Assembly (NCBI RefSeq): GCF_056746865.1
Contig: NZ_CM163382.1
DNA length: 64,000 nt
Reading direction: 5' to 3' (one strand)
Shown piece by piece: positions 1 through 9,325 of the stretch. How positions within the stretch are numbered: the first letter of the stretch is position 1; every line of letters starts with the position of its first letter. Below the pieces are notes generated by a model. It was given only the letters and a program-made list of their open reading frames with translations, did not search any database and was not told where the DNA came from. Both the position numbers and the translations under genes were made by a program.

Positions 1-2927
1 GATTTTATGAATCTGAACGACGCAATTTTCTCGGAACATTATTCAGTGAAGGTGGTTTACCTTTCCGGCTACTCAAAGAATCAGACAGTCGCTTTCTGGC
101 TGTTTTCTCCAGGATCCTTGGACAATATGAGCAAGCAAAGCAGTCAGGTTTTTCTGCCCTTTCGCTGGCAAGAGCTGTCATAGAAAAATCAGCGCTGCCA
201 ACTGTTTTTAGCGAAGATACCTCTGTAGAACTTATCAGTCATATGGCTGATAACCTCAATTCCTTAGTACTTACTCACAACCTAATAAATCACAAAGAAC
301 CAGTACAACAGCTTGAGAAGGTTCACCCTACCTGGCGAAGCGAGTTTCCAATACCGTTAGATGATGAAACAGGAACGCATTTTTTGAATGGACTGCTATG
401 CGCAGCCTCTGTAGAGGCTAAGCCTCGACTACAAAAAAATAAGAGTACGCGTTGCCAATTCTATTGGTCAGAAAAGCATCCAGATGAGCTTAGGGTGATA
501 GTATCTCTTCCGGACGAAGTTTCCTTTCCTGTAACAAGCGAGCCGTCAACTACGCGCTTTGAACTTGCCATTTGTGAAGATGGTGAGGAAGTCTCTGGCC
601 TTGGGCCAGCCTATGCTTCTCTGGAAAACAGACAGGCAACAGTTCGATTACGTAAAAGCGAAGTGAGATTTGGCAGGCAAAATCCATCGGCAGGTTTGTC
701 GTTAGTGGCTCGTGCTGGAGGGATGATTGTTGGGAGCATTAAACTTGATGACAGTGAAATTGCCATTGGTGAGGTGCCGTTAACCTTCATCGTTGATGCA
801 GATCAATGGCTGTTACAGGGACAGGCTTCTTGCAGTGTGCGAAGCAGCGATGTTCTGATTGTGCTCCCTCGGGATAATAGCAATGTTGCTGGTTTTGATG
901 GCCAATCGAGGGCAGTAAACGTATTAGGACTAAAAGCACTACCTGTGAAGGGATGTCAGGACGTTACAGTTACAGCAAATGAAACTTATCGGATTCGCAC
1001 CGGAAGAGAACAAATCAGCATCGGAAGGTTTGCTCTAAATGGAAAGCGTGCAAGCTGGGTTTGTCATCCAGATGAAACATTTATTGGTGTACCAAAAGTC
1101 ATTTCTACACTACCGGATATTCAAAGCATTGATGTAACGCGTTACCTGAGCGGAATTTCAATTGAGCAATGTCATATACAAGAGATGCTGGGGGCTCAAT
1201 ATCTTTCTATCCGTAATAGTAAGAATGAAACGCTCTTGCGTCGCAAAATCGGTATTTTGCCTGCTGATTTCAGTATTGAGATAAAAGGTGGAATACACGC
1301 AAATGAAGGCACTATCGTAATCACCACACAGCATCCTTGTGTAGCAAAACTTAAAGATAAAACATTGGAGGCTACACGTAAGCGTACTGAGGGGCGAACA
1401 GAGATACAACTCAAAGCGGAAGGGGTACCTCCGGCATTTATTACATTACAAGTTCTGCCTAATTTGGCGGCTGACCCCATCGATATTGAGTTACCTTTTC
1501 CCGCTAAAGGCTGTCTCGCTCTTGATGTAAACGGACGTCCTCTGGATAAAAACATTACGCTGCATGATCTGCTGGGTTCCAGAGCGTTTCTGTTCTCCAG
1601 AAATGGCGAGCCGACAAGATATACATTGCAGTTGCATTTGCGCTCCGTTAGTGGATTACAGGCATGGCACGAATGGTGTTATACGGCGTTGAGCGATCGT
1701 CCTGTTGAATTGAATCTCTATAGTCTGCGCGAACATATTGAGAACCTGATTTCACTTGAGGCAGGTATTGACCAGGTTGTTGAGATGCGTATTACGGGGG
1801 CGGGTGTGGTCATGGCCTGGCAAATTCGTCGCTATAAATACAGTCTGCGCTATGATTATGAAAAAGAACTATTACTCAGCCAGTCAGTGAACCATCGTGC
1901 TGGACAGATTCCTTCCCCCGTTATCATGCTGTTAAGTGAACCCGAGAGGAAATCCATCCCCTTAGCATCAAGAATGAGCGAGGGAGTGCCTGTCGGTGAA
2001 TATGAGTTGAGCTCAATCGTTAACAAAAATGGACCGTGGTTGGTTGTCCCTAAACCGGGTGAAGAGATGGCTTTTCGTCCCTGCTTCATTCGTGGCGAAT
2101 CTTCGTTACCGGTAGAAGAAAGCAACATCCGCTCATTGCAGAAAGCGACCCAGCTTTTTAATCCACAGGCAGAAGTTAATACCATCACACTGGTTCTCGG
2201 ACAGATGGCTAACGATCCTGCCCATTCCGGCTGGCAATTTATGCGTAGCCTGTACGATCAATTTGGTTATTTACCACTGGCAACCTTTGAAGTATGGCGT
2301 GCACTGGTGCAGCATCCGCAGGCATTGGCAATGTCGCTCTTCAAATTTGAAATGTCAGCAGAGTACCTGAGTCGTATTGAGAATGAGTTCCCTATTCTAT
2401 GGGAGTTTTTCCCCATCTTTGAGATCAAAGCGGCATCTGAGCGTTTCAAATTGTTCCTGAGCCAAAAAGGTGCACCGGAGGAAACCCAGAAATTACTGGT
2501 TACTAATATGTTTCAACGGCTGGGGCTCGTGTTCCCGACATATGCCGATGAAATTGAGAAATGGTTAAGTAACGGACATCTCCCCCCGTCTATTCCTGAG
2601 TCTTTTGTCCACGTGTGGTATCAGGAGCTTTTACGTGAGCATAGTGAAGCTCAATGGCCAGAGTACGGCAGCAAGCGGCTGCATAGCTGGATGGCATCAC
2701 AAAAAAATCCAGTGATTGGTATTAATCCTGACGCAAATCACCGCTATTCCGTGGCCTTGTTACCCGTCTTCGCTGCAGCTGTGGCAAGCGGAAATGCTTC
2801 TTTTGAATCTGTATTTGACCGTAAACCCGGTGCCGTATTTTTCCTGAGGCAAGTCAGGGATTTCGATTCCCGCTGGTTTAAGGCCATCTTCCAGTGCAGC
2901 CTGTTGCGTTATGTTGCTAAAAAATAA
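1..2927 (+). CDS. Large protein of unknown function, 5-prime partial (continues upstream of the window); first gene of candidate two-gene defense operon
   Basis: Reading frame is open from position 3 through the ORF-track ATG at 243 with no stop, and the upstream translation (FYESERRNFLGTLFSEGGLPFRLL...) looks protein-like; stop at 2925-2927; no catalytic motif I can name. Confidence 0.7.
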   Translation, partial: FYESERRNFLGTLFSEGGLPFRLLKESDSRFLAVFSRILGQYEQAKQSGFSALSLARAVIEKSALPTVFSEDTSVELISHMADNLNSLVLTHNLINHKEPVQQLEKVHPTWRSEFPIPLDDETGTHFLNGLLCAASVEAKPRLQKNKSTRCQFYWSEKHPDELRVIVSLPDEVSFPVTSEPSTTRFELAICEDGEEVSGLGPAYASLENRQATVRLRKSEVRFGRQNPSAGLSLVARAGGMIVGSIKLDDSEIAIGEVPLTFIVDADQWLLQGQASCSVRSSDVLIVLPRDNSNVAGFDGQSRAVNVLGLKALPVKGCQDVTVTANETYRIRTGREQISIGRFALNGKRASWVCHPDETFIGVPKVISTLPDIQSIDVTRYLSGISIEQCHIQEMLGAQYLSIRNSKNETLLRRKIGILPADFSIEIKGGIHANEGTIVITTQHPCVAKLKDKTLEATRKRTEGRTEIQLKAEGVPPAFITLQVLPNLAADPIDIELPFPAKGCLALDVNGRPLDKNITLHDLLGSRAFLFSRNGEPTRYTLQLHLRSVSGLQAWHEWCYTALSDRPVELNLYSLREHIENLISLEAGIDQVVEMRITGAGVVMAWQIRRYKYSLRYDYEKELLLSQSVNHRAGQIPSPVIMLLSEPERKSIPLASRMSEGVPVGEYELSSIVNKNGPWLVVPKPGEEMAFRPCFIRGESSLPVEESNIRSLQKATQLFNPQAEVNTITLVLGQMANDPAHSGWQFMRSLYDQFGYLPLATFEVWRALVQHPQALAMSLFKFEMSAEYLSRIENEFPILWEFFPIFEIKAASERFKLFLSQKGAPEETQKLLVTNMFQRLGLVFPTYADEIEKWLSNGHLPPSIPESFVHVWYQELLREHSEAQWPEYGSKRLHSWMASQKNPVIGINPDANHRYSVALLPVFAAAVASGNASFESVFDRKPGAVFFLRQVRDFDSRWFKAIFQCSLLRYVAKK

Positions 2928-2939
2928 AAAGGAATAAGG

Positions 2940-5900
2940 ATGACTACACGCTATTTTTCGTCACTTATTGAACAATCGTTGTCTCGTTCAACTGAAGCAA
3001 CGCTCAGTATCATGGGCGTTACCAACCCGCAGCTGCGTGAACATCTCGCGCAACAAATGGGGGCTGATTGTGGGAAACCGGGCTCATTCCTTGCTTCTCC
3101 GGTATTCCAGCAAATGTTTGGCTGGAAGGAGTCAAACCACACGATGCGCAGCCTGACGGAAGGCAACGCATTGTTGAGCAAAGCAGTGGTTGATTCACTG
3201 GATGATCAGAATAATGGCCGGTACCGGTTTGGTGCTGACTGGAGGCCTTTTACGCACCAGTTAGCCAGTTGGAAAGCTTTGCTGGAAAAGAAACATTCAG
3301 TGGTGGTAACCAGTGGTACGGGTTCAGGTAAAACGGAATGTTTTATGGTACCGGTGCTGGAAGATCTTTACCGGGAACTGCATGAAAATGGCAACAATCC
3401 GTTGGTCGGTGTCCGAGCCCTTTTTCTCTATCCATTGAACGCCCTGATTAATTCACAGCGCGAGCGTCTGGATGCCTGGACGCGTGGTTTTGGTACAGGG
3501 ATCCGCTACTGCCTTTACAACGGCAACACCGAAAACCTACACGCTTCGGTAAAAAGCGAACAGGCAAAAAGGCCGAATGAGGTGCTCTCGCGCGAAAAAA
3601 TGCGTGAAGAACCTGCGCCGATTCTGGTGACCAACGGCACGATGCTGGAATATATGATGGTTCGCCAGGTCGACGCCCCGATTATCCAGCAATCTAAAGC
3701 ACAAAAATCACTACGCTGGATTGTACTGGATGAAGCGCATACCTATGTAGGGTCGCAGGCCGCTGAACTGGCGCTCCAGCTGCGTCGTGTGATGACCGCG
3801 TTTGGCGTGACACCAGATGACGTGCGCTTTGTCGCGACCTCTGCGACCATTGCCGGCAGCGACGCTGAAAAGCAGCTGAAAAAATTTCTCTCTGAATTAT
3901 CCGGTATCCCGCAGGAGCGCATCGATGTTCTGGACGGAAGTCGGGTGATTCCTGAACTGGAACCATCCAAAAACGTTTCTGTTCCGTTAGACGAGATAGA
4001 GCAAATACCTGATCTGGATCTAAGAGATAAAAATGATAATAAAATTAAAGGGATAAGTCCTGAGCGCTTTTATGCGCTTACGCATTCCCCCGAAGCGCGT
4101 TACATACGTGAGATGTTGGTCAAACAGCCCAATCCGATGAAGCTGGATGAGATAACAGAGCGGTTACACGTGCTGACAAAACAGCATTACAGCCAGCAGG
4201 AAGTACTGCGTTGGATCGATGTCTGTTCAGGGACTCAACCTAATGCAAAGGATCCCGCATTTCTTAAAGTCAGGGCGCATATCTTCCAGCGTAATACCCA
4301 GGGAATATGGGCTTGTGTTGATAAAGATTGCAGATTAAAGCACGGTACACCGCTCGACAAAGGCTGGCCCTTTGGCTATGTGTATGTGAACCAGCGACAA
4401 AATTGTGACTGTGGAAGCCCTGTATACGAAGTTGCATTCTGTAATGATTGTAATGAGCCTCATCTTCTGGCACGGGACAAAAAGGGCAAACTAGTCCAGT
4501 GGGAAAATAAAGGTGGCGATGAATTCTCTTTGCAGGATGAAGTACCTGTTGAACATGACGCTACAGAAGAAAAAGTCGAAAAAGAGAACAGTTTTCAGCC
4601 TCCGTTGATTATTGCCGCAGGAGAGACCAGCGAGGCAGGTTATACCCTACAACGCCTCGACCGTCAGACGCGCCGTATTGGCGTTATTAACAATGACAGC
4701 ATTCCGCTGATTATTAATGATATTGAACAGGTTTGTAGTGCCAGTGGCTGTGGCTACAGAGGCATGAGTGGGAAACAGCCCTTCCGGCGTGCACTATTAG
4801 GTGGGCCATTTTACGTTACTAATATCGTGCCCACCGTTCTAGAGTATTGTCAGGACTTTACCAGTGATGAAGGCAAAGAGGGCGTCGGACCAGATTCGTT
4901 GCCAGGACGAGGTCGTCGACTCATCACCTTTACAGACAGTCGACAAGGGACAGCCCGAATGGCGGTGCGTATGCAGCAAGAAGCAGAACGCAGTCGCTTA
5001 CGCGGAAGCGTAGTCGAAATTCTCAGCTGGCATCAAAGGACGCAAACGTCTACAGCGCCGAATGCCAATGCCGATCTGGAAAAATTAGCGGCCAGGGCGA
5101 AGCAAGCCCGTGAGCAGGCAGAAGAATATCGAAGCTGGGGAATGCCAGACCAGGCGAAATTGTCACAAGCACAGGCTGAACAGCTTGAACAGGCTTATCA
5201 GGCTGCAACCGGTGGGAAAGCTGCGACTATCCTGGTATCCCGAACCTGGACGGAGATGGTTAACGAGCTTAAAGAGAGAGCCGATATCCGCGGGCCGGTT
5301 CTGCAATATAACCATTATCTTAAGCCTGAAGTGTTTAATGAAAACGGCGGCCCCCTTAAGCTTTCTGAAATGTTGTTGTTCCGGGAATTCATGCGTCGCC
5401 CTAAACGGACTAACAGCCTGGAAACACAGGGGCTGGTTCAGGTTGGTTACCAGGGGCTGGAGAAAATACATAAGAGCCCCTTGCACTGGCAGGAAAAAGG
5501 ATTAACGCTGGATGACTGGCGCGATTTTCTCAAGGTTACGTTGGATCATTACGTTCGCGAGAGCAACTTCACACAGCTGGATGATGAGCTGAAAAACTGG
5601 ATTGGTAGCCGTTTTTCATCAAAATTCGTCCGTAACCCGGAATCAAAAGATCCTGAAGATAATCAGAACAGACGCTGGCCTCAAATTCGTAATGGCAACG
5701 TATCCCATCGTTTAGCGAAGTTGCTGATGCTGGGGGCTGGATTCAAAACCGTCAATGCGGCAACTATTGATATTATCAATACATGGCTGAAAGAAGCATG
5801 GGCCCAACTTACCGGACCGCTTGCAGTACTGAAACCCGATGGCAACCGTTTTTATTTACCGAAAGAGCATATGACTTTTTCTTTAATCACGGATGCCTGG

Positions 5901-8900
5901 ATTTGCCCGGTAACCAATAAAATCCTGGATACGGCTTTTAAAGGCTTAACCCCTTATCTGCCTACCCATATTTCGTTCGAGCATCTTACCCTGGCGCAAT
6001 ATGACACTTTTGTCGCGCAGAAAGTCACAATGCCGGAAATCTGGAAGCTGGATCGTTCACAGGAAGACTACGCAGAGGGTCTGGCAAAAGCACGCGACTG
6101 GGTCAGCCATGATCCGCTGATCGCACAATTGCGGTCGGAAAACGTCTGGACAGACATTAACGATCGTGTCGTGGAAGGCGGCTTCTACTATCGTACTGCC
6201 GAGCACTCTGCCCAGCAGTCGTCAGAACGTCTGCAAAGCTATGAAAAGATGTTCAAGAATGGGCAACTAAATGTTCTCAACTGTTCCACCACCATGGAAA
6301 TGGGGGTTGATATCGGGGGTATTACTGCGGTGGTAATGAACAACGTACCGCCACATCCGGCCAACTATTTACAGCGCGCCGGGCGAGCCGGGCGTAGTAA
6401 AGAATCACGCGCGATCTCTTACACCCTATGTAAAGGTAACCCACACGACCAGCAGGTTTTTGCCAACCCGCTCTGGCCATTTGAAACCATGATCCCGGCA
6501 CCCATGGTCGCGATGAACTCCGCCCGACTGGTGCAACGTCACGTCAATGCATTATTACTGTCCGACTTTTTATGTAACGTTATTGGCGAAACCGATAAAG
6601 AAAAAACCAGCCTCGATAGCCTCTGGTTTTTCGGTGAAGATGACGGGCAGTCAAAATGCGAACGCTTTAAAATCTGGCTGGAACGTCCGGTTCTTGATAT
6701 CGACACGGCGCTGGAACGGCTGGTGAAAGGTACGGCGTTGCATGGTGCAAGAGCCGAATATCTGCGGGATAAAACAATCAACGCGATCACCTTCCTGCAA
6801 CAGCGGTGGCTCTCCGTTTATCGCGATCTCGTGACACAGGAGCGTGAGTCGCAGCCGCAAACGCCTTATCGTAAGCGCATAGAGCTGGAGAAGAAACGGC
6901 ACTGTGGCGAGTATCTGCTGCGCGATCTGGCTGCCAGAACCTTCCTGCCGGGATACGGTTTCCCGACAGATGTAGTGACGTTTGATAACTTCACGATGGA
7001 AGATTATATCCGCGAAAAATCGCAGAAAAGTCGTGATAAAAAGGACCGTGAAGATAACGTTTCCCGTTATAAAGGATTACCTTCCCGTAACCTCGGTGTT
7101 GCCATTCGTGAATATGCACCGGGAGCAGAGATCATCCTTGATGGCCGTGTCTTCCGCTCTGCCGGTGTCTCACTGCACTGGCACAACATTAATGCTGATA
7201 CCAATGAAGCCCAGCGTCTGGATTGCGCCTGGCGCTGTCACAAATGCGGGACCATTGGCTATGAAGAGGGGATGAGCAGTTCCGGGATGCTCTTTTGCTC
7301 CAATAGCGCCTGCGGCGAAAAAATAATCATGGATAATCGCCGTCAGGTGCTGCAGCCTGCCGGGTTTGTCACCGATGCACACGCTCCGGTAACGAACAAT
7401 ATTGAAACCATGAAATTCGTCCCGGTTGTCCCCGCGTGGGTCTTTGTTAAAGCAGAGCCCGTACCGTTGCCTAACCCGCTAATGGGTTATATGGCTTCTG
7501 GGGCTGATGGGCATGTTTTCCAGCAAAGTTTGGGGGAAGGTGGACACGGTTATGCATTGTGTCTGAGCTGTGGCCGTGCTGAGTCGATGCTGAATGAAAA
7601 TGATGCGCCGAAAAGTATGGAAGCTCACTATCCACCGCGTCCGGGTAAAGCGGATCGCGACAGCCAGAATCATCGTCTGATTTGCCCCGGTTCGACGGCA
7701 CTCATGAAGAATGTCACCCTGGGCGCACTGGCGCGTACCGATGTCTTTGAAATGGTTCTGCGCAAACCGCAAAACGGCGAGTATCTGCCAGATAACACAG
7801 AGGAGGGGCGGATTGTTGCCATGACTCTGGCGGTTGCTCTGCGTCAGGCGCTGGCGGGCGTTCTGGGTATCTCCGCCGCAGAACTCGGCTATTCTGTACG
7901 TCCGGTCAGACTGGAGGATGGGCAATCGGTATTAGCCGTACAGCTTTATGATGTGATCAGCGGTGGTGCAGGTTTTGCCTCCAGCGCACCGGTACACATT
8001 GAAGCTATATTGCAGGGAATGGTGAAACAGTTAGGCTGCCGCCATTGTGAGACTGCATGTAGTGAATGCCTGCTTGATTCCCAGACTCGCCACGATCACG
8101 ATTTGCTGGATCGCAAAGCGGCGCTGGCCTGGCTTGGCGATGACTTCACGTATTACATCGGTTTACCGGATGAAGAGACATTCTCGCTGCCGGATGCCCG
8201 CTACTGCCCTGGCGCCATTGGCGATACGATTCGCCGGGCGATTAACGAAGGCGCTGAAAAGCTCACCCTGTGGATGACCGGCGCGCCCAATGAGTGGGAT
8301 TTATACGCACGTCAGTTCCGCGCGGCGGTTCAGAACTATCGGCTAAAAGACAACGTCGAGGTCGATCTTGTTATTCCTACGGGAGTGGATGACCCGGACC
8401 TGTTGCATGAACTATCGCAATTTACTGCGCTGGGTGTGCGGCTGTGCCATGTTGAACAGGATCTGCAATTACCGATCGTTGCCCAGGTCACCTTTACCGA
8501 TCGCGTGATGACGCTGGCCTCTCGCAGCCAGCAGGCAACGATTCCGGGGCCGGAGTGGCACCTGAATGACGAACTGGTGGTGCGTAGTCTCGGTTATAAA
8601 ACGGTAGAACTGAACGAGTTTATTCTGCCGGCTAAAGCCACCAACGCTGTCGAGCGGGTCAAAGACATTCAGATCCACAAACAGTTGAATGGACCACTGT
8701 CGCAGTTTGGGCAACGCTTCTGGGACGTGCTGTTTAACGACCATGAAGAAGCGCAGTCACTGATGAATAACACGCGAATTACCGGCGTTCACTATACCGA
8801 TCGCTATCTGCAAAACCCGGTTGCGCTGGCGTTGTTGGGATCAATTCTGAGACCGCTAAAAACAAAGCTGACCGATGGCGCTGAAGTGACGCTGGATACG

Positions 8901-9284
8901 CTATTTAAAGATAAAGATCGCCCCGGTAACCGGCCTTTCCATGACTGGATGAGCATAGCGGATTTTCAGGATTTCGCTGATCAGTGGTTTGCTGCTGCGC
9001 TGGGCAGGCCGGTAGAACTGACGGTGTTCGACTCGCCGCGCGATATCCCTCACCATCGTAAACTGACGGTGACTTTTGAGGATGGTCAGGTATTGAAGAT
9101 CCGCTTCGATCAGGGGATGGGCTACTGGCGCATCAACTTTTCATCGCAATGGCATTACTTTGATTTCCGCGATGACGTTTCTTTCCAGTTAGTCAAAATG
9201 GCTCAGGCCTGCAAGGAAGGGAATGTCGCCAACAGCGAAGAGAGTTGGGCAACGGATGTGCTGGTGGAGGTGATCGCCTCCTGA
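2940..9284 (+). CDS. Giant (2114 aa) DEAH-box superfamily-2 helicase with C-terminal Cys-rich Zn-ribbon (DUF1998/MrfA-like) region; candidate DruE-like defense helicase
   Basis: Walker A GTGSGKT (aa 126-132, nt 3315-3335), DEAH box VLDEAH (aa 264-267, nt 3729-3740), SAT motif, helicase C-domain motif QRAGRAGR (nt ~6372-6395), Cys clusters [31 protein letters not shown] (nt ~7220-8075); starts 13 nt after gene 1 stop behind aaggaataagg RBS. Confidence 0.85.
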
Positions 9285-9290
9285 TGATGA

Positions 9291-9325
9291 GCCGCTCCCG
9301 ATGTGGTGTCGGGAGCGGTATTTTC
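9291..9325. terminator. Bidirectional rho-independent terminator between the convergent helicase gene and mcrC
   Basis: Stem ccgctcccg / cgggagcgg with 9-nt loop followed by T-run, in the 56-bp gap between two convergent stops. Confidence 0.6.

What the first reader, a model, noticed from the sequence alone, without database searches (positions are those of the whole stretch)
7200..8080. Multi-cysteine Zn-ribbon module embedded in the C-terminal half of the giant helicase
Paired Cys motifs (CAWRCHKCG..., [29 protein letters not shown]) cluster after the helicase C-domain. In DUF1998 helicases (MrfA, DrmA, DruE) this module is the family signature. About 400 aa follow it with no motif I can assign, which could be an effector or regulatory domain.
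Basis: partly seen in the sequence, partly recalled or inferred. Interest (0 to 1): 0.5.

Follow-up and report, generated by a model that had tools for sequence, protein, structure and literature searches.

The report
Zinc sites of Druantia helicase DruE
The cysteine motifs are real and conserved, but they form three separate zinc-binding sites in DruE, the large helicase of the known anti-phage system Druantia type III, and the unassigned tail is a pair of phospholipase-D-like domains already described in relatives.

Summary
The 2114-aa ORF (window 2940-9284, +) is DruE of a Druantia type III system. It sits after DruH/YjiT in the E. coli immigration control region, next to mcrCB, hsdSMR and mrr. 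They are not one module.

Conservation in 88 homologues from separate 50%-identity clusters (median 37% identity), together with homology to the cryo-EM structure of EDL933 DruE (PDB 9tu7), resolves three sites:
- C1433/C1436/C1453/C1458, in the OB/Zn domain. C1429 is not conserved.
- C1541/C1544/H1563/C1582, also in the OB/Zn domain. The CCHC ligand set is my inference.
- C1700/C1703/C1707/C1710, which alone is the DUF1998/MZB family signature (Pfam MZB, aa 1631-1711).

Preprints from 2026 already describe this architecture in relatives and show that the MZB cysteines are essential for defence. They disagree on whether the PLD tail is a nuclease or dispensable. The finding is ordinary and already known; this lineage itself is untested.

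The parts
3..2927 (+). druH (yjiT), 3' part. The gene starts about 363 nt before the window.
   Evidence: PADLOC DruH3 with E = 0. NCBIfam YjiT_fam 981 bits. Annotated as yjiT, 1096 aa, in the identical genome.
2940..9284 (+). druE, 2114 aa: the Druantia type III YprA/MrfA-family SF2 helicase. It starts 12 nt after the druH stop, behind an AAGGA ribosome-binding site.
   Evidence: PADLOC DruE3 PDLC00037 2701 bits over aa 1-2110. PDB 9tu7 (EDL933 DruE) 1029 bits at full length. 100% identical to WP_000213431.1. Sequence.
3255..3869 (+). RecA1 (DEAD/DEAH), with Walker A T127-T132 and DEAH at aa 264-267.
   Evidence: Pfam DEAD aa 106-310, E 1.2e-22. Motif positions.
4314..4751 (+). Double zinc-binding domain inserted in the helicase core: eight invariant cysteines (C459, 464, 489, 491, 501, 504, 599, 604).
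   Evidence: 88/88 conservation of each cysteine. Corresponds to the dZBD / ZBM_L with two Zn motifs in the homologue structures (10.64898/2026.05.13.724758; 10.64898/2026.05.12.722862).
6192..6398 (+). RecA2 C-terminal helicase motifs (RAGR at aa 1146).
   Evidence: Pfam Helicase_C aa 1085-1153, E 8e-12. Motif position.
7236..7313 (+). Zn site 1 of the OB/Zn domain: C1433, C1436, C1453, C1458 (C-x2-C ... C-x4-C).
   Evidence: Conserved in 88/88, 88/88, 87/88 and 88/88 homologues; C1429 is variable. Aligned to the Cys pairs of 9tu7.
7560..7685 (+). Zn site 2 of the OB/Zn domain: C1541, C1544, H1563, C1582 (the CCHC ligand set is inferred).
   Evidence: C1541 and C1544 in 88/88, H1563 in 87/88, C1582 in 84/88; the nearby H1536 is not conserved. 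'CLSCGRAES' is identical in 9tu7.
7830..8072 (+). MZB (DUF1998) domain as matched by Pfam, aa 1631-1711.
   Evidence: PF09369 E 1.7e-9, 38.7 bits against a cut-off of 24.2, profile positions 2-80 of 80.
8037..8069 (+). MZB four-cysteine signature: C1700, C1703, C1707, C1710.
   Evidence: Conserved in 88/88, 87/88, 88/88 and 88/88. Aligns to C1681/1683/1687/1690 of EDL933 DruE, whose mutation abolishes defence (10.64898/2026.05.13.724758).
8202..8624 (+). PLD-like domain 1 (about aa 1755-1895), degenerate.
   Evidence: AF2 model pLDDT 90.9. PLD-superfamily fold hits. Only 17% mean identity among homologues and no conserved His.
8625..9281 (+). PLD-like domain 2 (about aa 1896-2114), with a conserved pocket: Y1952, D1954, R1955, Y1956, P1960, H2038, R2040, D2057, G2059.
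9291..9319 (+). Terminator-like hairpin (13-bp stem followed by a T-run) just after the druE stop, facing convergent mcrC.

Best explanation
The region encodes the 'lid' or 'canopy' of DruE, the YprA/MrfA-type 3'-to-5' DNA helicase of a two-gene Druantia type III-A anti-phage system (druH-druE). Between aa 1421 and 1714 there are three independent structural zinc sites, not one module.

Two of them sit in insertions of the OB-fold/connector region: C1433/C1436/C1453/C1458 and C1541/C1544/H1563/C1582. They stiffen loops that line the channels for the tracking and displaced DNA strands.

The third, C1700/C1703/C1707/C1710, is the four-cysteine knot of the MZB (DUF1998) domain. This domain closes with the OB domain over the RecA core to form the ssDNA tunnel. 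In relatives it is required to turn DNA-stimulated ATP hydrolysis into duplex unwinding.

The 400 aa that follow are two PLD-fold domains. PLD1 is degenerate. PLD2 keeps an invariant His-x-Arg / Asp-Arg-Tyr pocket, which is a nuclease or phosphate/nucleotide-binding site according to different reports on relatives.

Shown here: the motifs, their conservation, the family assignment and the PLD fold of the tail. Inferred from homologues: zinc occupancy, the ligand grouping (especially the CCHC site), and the DNA-handling roles.
For: Family assignment: PADLOC DruE3 at full length with E = 0, and DruH3 for the upstream gene. A full-length match to the PDB chain 9tu7, which is EDL933 DruE by residue numbering.

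MZB: the Pfam hit covers only aa 1631-1711.

Conservation: each of the 11 Cys plus H1563 is kept in 84-88 of 88 divergent homologues, while the surrounding sequence is only 33-37% identical. C1429 and H1536 vary. Eight further homologues, including a 1699-aa protein without the PLD tail, keep all 12 ligands.

Literature on homologues: EDL933 DruE has five Zn motifs (two in dZBD, two in OBZ, one in MZB). MZB Cys mutants abolish defence. The truncation 1-1502 binds ssDNA and hydrolyses ATP but needs the MZB (1-1723) to unwind (10.64898/2026.05.13.724758). In MrfA the four-Cys site was shown to bind Zn by anomalous diffraction (PMC7797055).

Against: No metal or structure data exist for this protein. 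It is only about 35% identical to the solved EDL933 DruE in this region. I could not obtain coordinates, so the grouping of ligands into sites rests on sequence spacing, conservation and the published count of sites. The fourth ligand of site 2 (H1563) is an inference. The only structure prediction that covered the Cys region was run from a single sequence and failed (pLDDT 37). [quoted passage not shown] The role of the tail is contested: the PLDs are dispensable in the E. coli EDL933 and NCTC12923 systems, whereas PLD-pocket mutations abolish defence in P. aeruginosa DruE and in the E. coli DruE of PMC13192584.
Confidence: 0.88

Rival explanations
1. One reading: the four Cys motifs form a single contiguous multi-cysteine Zn-ribbon module, and that module as a whole is the DUF1998 family signature.
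For: All the motifs lie within 282 aa, and all but C1429 are conserved. [quoted passage not shown]
Against: The Pfam MZB profile (80 positions) matches only aa 1631-1711, which holds the last motif. The MrfA signature is four closely spaced Cys in a coil between helices, and MrfA's OB and connector domains are described without Zn sites (PMC7797055). The EDL933 structure assigns two sites to the OB/Zn domain and one to the MZB (10.64898/2026.05.13.724758). The motifs are separated by 83 and 118 aa of conserved non-Cys sequence.
Confidence: 0.07
2. The closely spaced C-x2-C-x3-C-x2-C motif (aa 1700-1710) binds an iron-sulfur cluster, as in XPD/DinG/AddB-type enzymes, and acts as a redox or DNA-charge sensor rather than a structural zinc site.
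For: Four cysteines within 11 residues resemble ferredoxin-like spacing. This rests on the sequence only.
Against: In MrfA the homologous site gave a Zn-edge anomalous peak (PMC7797055). The cryo-EM studies of DruE relatives describe the Cys motifs as zinc-binding (10.64898/2026.05.13.724758; 10.64898/2026.05.13.724313). There are no Fe-S assembly partners in the locus.
Confidence: 0.03
3. For the tail: PLD2 is the catalytic nuclease effector of the system. DruE would be a helicase-nuclease that degrades phage DNA threaded by the motor.
For: D1954, H2038, R2040 and G2059 are invariant in 88/88 homologues although PLD2 is only 26% identical overall. The fold matches the PLD nucleases SauUSI, Nuc, BfiI and NgoAVII. 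In PaDruE, alanine substitutions of D1740, D1917 and R1918 abolish defence, and D1740A also abolishes ssDNA degradation in vitro (10.64898/2026.05.13.724313). R1258A in the pocket abolishes defence in another E. coli study (PMC13192584).
Against: There is only one conserved His: no His in PLD1 is kept in at least 80% of homologues, whereas classical PLD chemistry uses two. The motif is H-x-R rather than H-x-K-x4-D. There is no Pfam PLD hit even at E <= 10. The best fold match is the non-catalytic MITD1. Deleting both PLDs left defence, ATPase and unwinding intact, and no reproducible nuclease activity was seen, in EDL933 and NCTC12923 DruE (10.64898/2026.05.13.724758; 10.64898/2026.05.12.722862). 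PLD-less DruE homologues exist.
Confidence: 0.4
4. For the tail: the PLD2 pocket is a nucleotide- or phosphate-binding regulatory or assembly site and not a nuclease.
For: ATP-gamma-S was seen bound in the PLD pocket of trimeric DruE, and the CTD mediates higher-order assembly (PMC13192584). The closest fold is the MITD1 PLD-like domain. There is a single-His pocket. The PLDs are dispensable for core defence in two E. coli studies.
Against: The same pocket's mutants abolish in vitro DNA degradation in PaDruE (10.64898/2026.05.13.724313). Nothing was tested on this protein.
Confidence: 0.35

Closest known systems
DruE of E. coli O157:H7 EDL933 / ATCC 8739 / NCTC12923 (Druantia III-A; PDB 9tu7-9tuc; 2104 aa)
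   Same: Collinear over the full length (1029 bits, aa 5-2089). It has the same set of Cys clusters, the same 'CLSCGRAES' motif, the MZB four-Cys motif, the DRY and HxR motifs of PLD2, and a DruH/YjiT-family partner upstream.
   Different: Only about 35% identical in the Zn region. The MZB spacing is C-x2-C-x3-C-x2-C here against C-x-C-x3-C-x2-C there. An extra, non-conserved C1429 is present. The interface histidines after C1582 (LCHGH) are replaced by ICPGS. This operon sits next to mcrCB/hsd/mrr, and neither Zorya II nor ARMADA II is annotated in the surrounding locus; the EDL933-type systems are co-encoded with both.
DruE of Pseudomonas aeruginosa (PaDruantia, helicase-nuclease model; 10.64898/2026.05.13.724313)
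   Same: Same domain list: RecA1/2, OB, DUF1998, Cys-rich Zn motifs and two MITD1-like PLD domains. The pocket motifs D-R-Y and H-x-R are conserved here (D1954-R-Y, H2038-x-R2040).
   Different: The position corresponding by offset to H1830 is not conserved in the family.
MrfA/YprA of Bacillus subtilis (PDB 6ZNP/6ZNS; PMC7797055)
   Same: SF2 core plus a WH-OB-CON-MZB canopy. The four-Cys Zn site is the family signature (Pfam PF09369 hit; PDB hit 6znp E 5e-17 on RecA1).
   Different: MrfA is 749 aa, and only the MZB zinc site is described for it (PMC7797055). It has no dZBD, no Zn insertions in OB/CON and no PLD tail, and it works with the exonuclease MrfB in DNA repair rather than in phage defence.
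PLD-superfamily domains (MITD1 C-terminal domain; the nucleases Nuc, BfiI, NgoAVII, SauUSI, Zucchini)
   Different: There is no H-x-K-x4-D motif; the invariant residues are H2038-x-R2040 with a single His. There is no Pfam PLD match. Global TM-scores to two-domain PLD enzymes are only 0.22-0.28, so the two domains are not packed as in the classical pseudo-dimer, or the model's packing differs.

Membership tests
Druantia type III (DruH + DruE) | A large DruE helicase matching the DruE type III profile over its full length | tested here: met
   PADLOC PDLC00037 DruE3: E = 0, 2700.9 bits, aa 1-2110 on profile positions 1-2053 of 2055.
Druantia type III (DruH + DruE) | A DruH gene adjacent, in the same operon | tested here: met
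   The upstream ORF ends 12 nt before druE. PADLOC DruH3 with E = 0. NCBIfam YjiT_fam 981 bits against a cut-off of 150. The gene is cut by the left edge of the window.
Druantia type III (DruH + DruE) | Protects against phage infection | not testable with these tools
   Defence has been shown only for homologues (EDL933, ATCC 8739, NCTC12923, P. aeruginosa, M. smegmatis), not for this ICR lineage.
Druantia subtype III-A (as opposed to III-B) | DruE carries two C-terminal PLD-like domains; III-B lacks them (10.64898/2026.05.13.724758; PMC12458937) | tested here: met
   AF2 model of aa 1715-2114 with pLDDT 90.9. PLD-superfamily fold hits. Collinear with PLD1/2 of 9tu7.
YprA/MrfA (DUF1998/MZB) helicase family | An SF2 dual-RecA core with DExH | tested here: met
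   Pfam DEAD E 1e-22 and Helicase_C E 8e-12. TGSGKT at aa 127 and DEAH at aa 264.
YprA/MrfA (DUF1998/MZB) helicase family | A C-terminal MZB domain with four closely spaced conserved cysteines | tested here: met
   PF09369 38.7 bits, above the 24.2 cut-off, aa 1631-1711. C1700, C1703, C1707 and C1710 are kept in 87-88 of 88 homologues.
YprA/MrfA (DUF1998/MZB) helicase family | The four cysteines coordinate Zn2+ | not testable with these tools
   Shown for MrfA by anomalous diffraction (PMC7797055) and described as zinc-binding in the cryo-EM studies of DruE homologues. No coordinates or metal data exist for this protein.
   Site 1 (C-x2-C, 16 aa, C-x4-C) has ribbon-like spacing. However, no Zn-ribbon Pfam family matched aa 1400-1714 even at E <= 10, and the only model covering it was unusable (pLDDT 37). 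By homology to MrfA, the MZB site is a coil between helices and not a ribbon (PMC7797055).
Phospholipase D superfamily (catalytic HKD enzymes) | PLD alpha/beta fold | tested here: met
Phospholipase D superfamily (catalytic HKD enzymes) | Two H-x-K-x4-D (HKD) motifs forming one active site | tested here: not met
   There is no Pfam PLD hit. The only invariant His is H2038, in H-x-R. The K2041 that gives an apparent 'HRK' is not conserved (E/S/V in homologues). No conserved His occurs in PLD1. The tail is therefore PLD-like in fold and not a canonical HKD enzyme.

The most novel reading that the evidence does not exclude
This immigration-control-region druHE is an experimentally untouched lineage, about 35% identical to the studied DruEs and without Zorya II or ARMADA II neighbours. 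In it, the strictly invariant single-His PLD2 pocket (D1954-R-Y, H2038-x-R2040) could be an obligatory output device: a non-canonical one-histidine nuclease, or a nucleotide-gated switch. That would reconcile the contradictory 2026 reports of 'dispensable' against 'essential nuclease', if the tail's requirement depends on which partner systems are present. The lone invariant C989 might also belong to an unrecognised metal or redox site.
Probability: 0.25. Interest if true: 0.45.

Novelty: already known. Interest (0 to 1): 0.15.

Why it matters
The finding mainly serves annotation. RefSeq calls this gene only a 'DEAD/DEAH box helicase'. It is in fact the intact DruE of a Druantia III-A system in the E. 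coli immigration control region, the full form of the K-12 remnants yjiT and yjiV.

The residue-level map may help anyone doing mutagenesis on this lineage.

One point bears on an open question. The PLD2 pocket residues are invariant across 88 divergent homologues, although two studies found the PLD domains dispensable. That conservation argues the tail has a selected function still to be pinned down.

Tried and rejected
- Single-sequence AlphaFold of aa 1301-2114 gave pLDDT 36.9 and was discarded. That used one of the two structure jobs, so the Cys region itself was never modelled with an alignment.
- The structure tools return no coordinates, so Cys-Cys distances could not be measured. Conservation and homology to 9tu7 were used instead.
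- Pfam at E <= 10 on the tail (aa 1715-2114) and on the N-terminal Cys cluster gave nothing. NCBIfam gave only sub-threshold helicase-core hits for DruE.
- H1536 ('GHGYA') was considered as the fourth ligand of site 2 and rejected, because it is kept in only 17 of 88 homologues. H1563 is kept in 87 of 88.
- C1429 was rejected as a ligand because it is not conserved.
- The apparent canonical 'H-R-K' (aa 2039-2041) was considered as an HKD motif and rejected. The alignment shows that H2038 and R2040 are the invariant pair, K2041 is variable, and no D lies at +5.
- The antisense ORF 7479-7925 (148 aa) has no Pfam match and lies inside a frame conserved as protein on the + strand. I treat it as spurious.
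- I looked for exact EDL933- or Pa-numbered sequences among the 88 representatives and found none, so the Pa residues D1740, H1830, R1951 and S2022 were not mapped.
- A first MAFFT run with --auto timed out and was redone with FFT-NS-2.
Full report
**What is at the coordinates**

The finding (nt 7200-8080) lies inside one long + strand ORF, 2940-9284, of 2114 aa. C1582 lies between them.

The region aa 1421-1714 carries 12 of the protein's 34 cysteines (binomial P = 0.003). The protein has 11 C-x(1-4)-C pairs, against 2.1 expected from shuffles. The only other ORF here is a 148-aa antisense ORF (7479-7925) with no family match. I regard it as spurious.

**Identity of the gene**

PADLOC profiles identify the protein as DruE of Druantia type III. 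PDLC00037 scores 2701 bits over aa 1-2110. The upstream ORF, which runs off the left edge of the window and ends 12 nt before druE, is DruH (E = 0). NCBIfam places that upstream protein in the YjiT family.

The DNA is 100% identical to E. coli FDAARGOS_497 and many other strains. There the gene is annotated only as 'DEAD/DEAH box helicase' (WP_000213431.1). It lies between yjiT and mcrCB-symE-hsdSMR-mrr, which is the immigration control region.

Pfam finds DEAD (aa 106-310), Helicase_C (aa 1085-1153) and the MrfA Zn-binding domain MZB/DUF1998 (aa 1631-1711, 38.7 bits against a cut-off of 24.2).

The Protein Data Bank holds a full-length relative, 9tu7 (2108 aa, 1029 bits). Residue numbering identifies it as EDL933 DruE with a 4-residue offset. 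Its C1685/1687/1691/1694 equal the published C1681/1683/1687/1690 (10.64898/2026.05.13.724758). Identity to it in the Zn region is 35%.

**The cysteines resolve into three sites, not one module**

I aligned 88 full-length homologues, each representing a different 50%-identity cluster. Their median identity to the query is 37%.

| Site | Ligands | Conservation (of 88) |
|---|---|---|
| OB/Zn site 1 | C1433, C1436, C1453, C1458 | 88, 88, 87, 88 |
| OB/Zn site 2 | C1541, C1544, H1563, C1582 | 88, 88, 87, 84 |
| MZB signature | C1700, C1703, C1707, C1710 | 88, 87, 88, 88 |

The nearby H1536 is variable. H1563 is the only invariant His between C1544 and C1582.

The grouping is therefore:
- Site 1: C-x2-C, 16 aa, C-x4-C.
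- Site 2: C-x2-C, 18 aa, H, 18 aa, C. The CCHC composition is my inference.
- Site 3: C-x2-C-x3-C-x2-C.

This agrees with the cryo-EM description of EDL933 DruE. [quoted passage not shown]

Only site 3 falls within the Pfam MZB match. In MrfA the family signature is exactly such a tight four-Cys knot in a coil between two helices, and anomalous diffraction proved that it binds Zn (PMC7797055). 'Zn-ribbon' is at best a description of site 1. In DISARM the domain sits on DrmB, not DrmA (PMC12458937).

**How it most likely works (by homology, not shown here)**

In MrfA the MZB acts as a drum that rolls the OB/connector canopy over the loaded strand (PMC7797055).

In EDL933 DruE the OB/Zn and MZB domains form a lid that closes over the RecA core to make the tunnel for the 3' tracking strand. 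One OB/Zn zinc motif touches the displaced strand. A fragment ending before the MZB binds ssDNA and hydrolyses ATP but cannot unwind. Mutating the MZB cysteines abolishes defence (10.64898/2026.05.13.724758).

The tracking-strand contacts F1327/P1328 of that protein correspond to the invariant F1341/P1342 here. The clamp residues W1480 and H1698 probably correspond to W1500 (59/88) and H1718 (32/88; F or Y in many others).

I therefore read the three sites as structural zinc knots that hold the lid loops in shape. The MZB knot is indispensable for coupling ATP hydrolysis to strand separation.

**The 400-aa tail**

No Pfam family matches aa 1715-2114 even at E <= 10. With a 40-sequence alignment, AlphaFold gave a confident model (pLDDT 90.9, pTM 0.76).

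PLD1 is barely conserved (17% identity, no conserved His). PLD2 is 26% identical overall but keeps Y1952, D1954, Y1956, P1960, H2038, R2040, D2057 and G2059 in 83-88 of 88 homologues, and R1955 in 79. These align with DRY and HxR in 9tu7. They match the pocket residues D1917/R1918/Y1919 and H1999/R2001 of P. aeruginosa DruE (10.64898/2026.05.13.724313).

It is not a canonical HKD site. There is one His, Arg stands in place of Lys, and the local 'HRK' is a coincidence because K2041 is variable.

**An unresolved point in the literature**

Two groups found both PLD domains dispensable for defence, ATPase and unwinding, and saw no nuclease activity (10.64898/2026.05.13.724758; 10.64898/2026.05.12.722862).

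Two others report ATP-dependent DNA degradation and loss of defence on mutating the pocket, plus ATP-gamma-S bound in it (10.64898/2026.05.13.724313; PMC13192584).

My conservation result (88/88 for D1954, H2038, R2040 and G2059) shows that the pocket is under strong selection wherever the tail exists. Tail-less DruEs that keep all three Zn sites also exist (P0243, 1699 aa). I cannot decide between the nuclease and regulatory readings for this protein.

**Novelty**

The system, the domain architecture, the zinc motifs and the PLD-like tail are all described for relatives, and PADLOC already has a profile fitting this protein end to end. This particular ICR lineage has not, as far as the searched literature shows, been tested experimentally. 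The finding is a correct but ordinary observation whose interpretation needed refinement.

**Seen in passing**

- The K-12-type YjiV (906 aa) is this DruE with aa 1-480 missing and aa 1125-1852 deleted in frame. It lacks all three zinc sites of the finding.
- 652 of 5426 complete E. coli genomes match druE at 95% identity or more, but only 237 over at least 80% of its length.
- A lone cysteine, C989 (C-P-x-T), is invariant in 88/88 and unexplained.
- A hairpin terminator follows druE at 9291-9319.
- The window equals the FDAARGOS_497 chromosome except for a 33-nt in-frame insertion in tsr near nt 36868.

Noticed in passing
window 4380-6311 and 8496-9284 (DruE aa 481-1124 and 1853-2114): The widespread K-12-type 'YjiV' protein (P0055, 906 aa, seen on at least 1000 contigs) is 99-100% identical to these two segments joined in frame. 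K-12 therefore carries a DruE remnant that lacks RecA1, the end of RecA2, the OB/Zn and MZB domains and PLD1. Only 237 of the 652 E. coli genomes with a druE match cover at least 80% of the gene.
   Followed up: partly
window 5904-5906 (DruE C989, motif C-P-x-T): A lone cysteine is invariant in 88/88 divergent homologues (P990 in 87/88, T992 in 82/88). It lies outside every Cys cluster, in the duplex-binding/cap region. No role for it was found in the papers read.
   Followed up: no
It corresponds to the double Zn-binding domain that contacts duplex DNA in homologue structures.
   Followed up: partly
window 1-2927: The DruH (yjiT) gene is cut by the left edge of the window; about 363 nt (121 codons) are missing. 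The ATG at 243 listed by the ORF finder is internal.
   Followed up: yes
window 36868-36900 (tsr): This is the only difference from the FDAARGOS_497 chromosome across the 64 kb: a 33-nt in-frame insertion that partly repeats the flanking sequence (GCCGCGCTGG...GCCGCCGCC) within the tsr chemoreceptor gene.
   Followed up: partly
window 9291-9319: A 13-bp-stem hairpin with a T-run sits in the 56-nt gap between the convergent druE and mcrC genes. It is likely a terminator.
   Followed up: no
P0243 (1699-aa homologue, not in the window): A DruE relative that keeps all 12 Zn ligands of the three sites but has only 31 aa after the MZB, so it has no PLD tail. This shows that the tail is a separable accessory.
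   Followed up: partly
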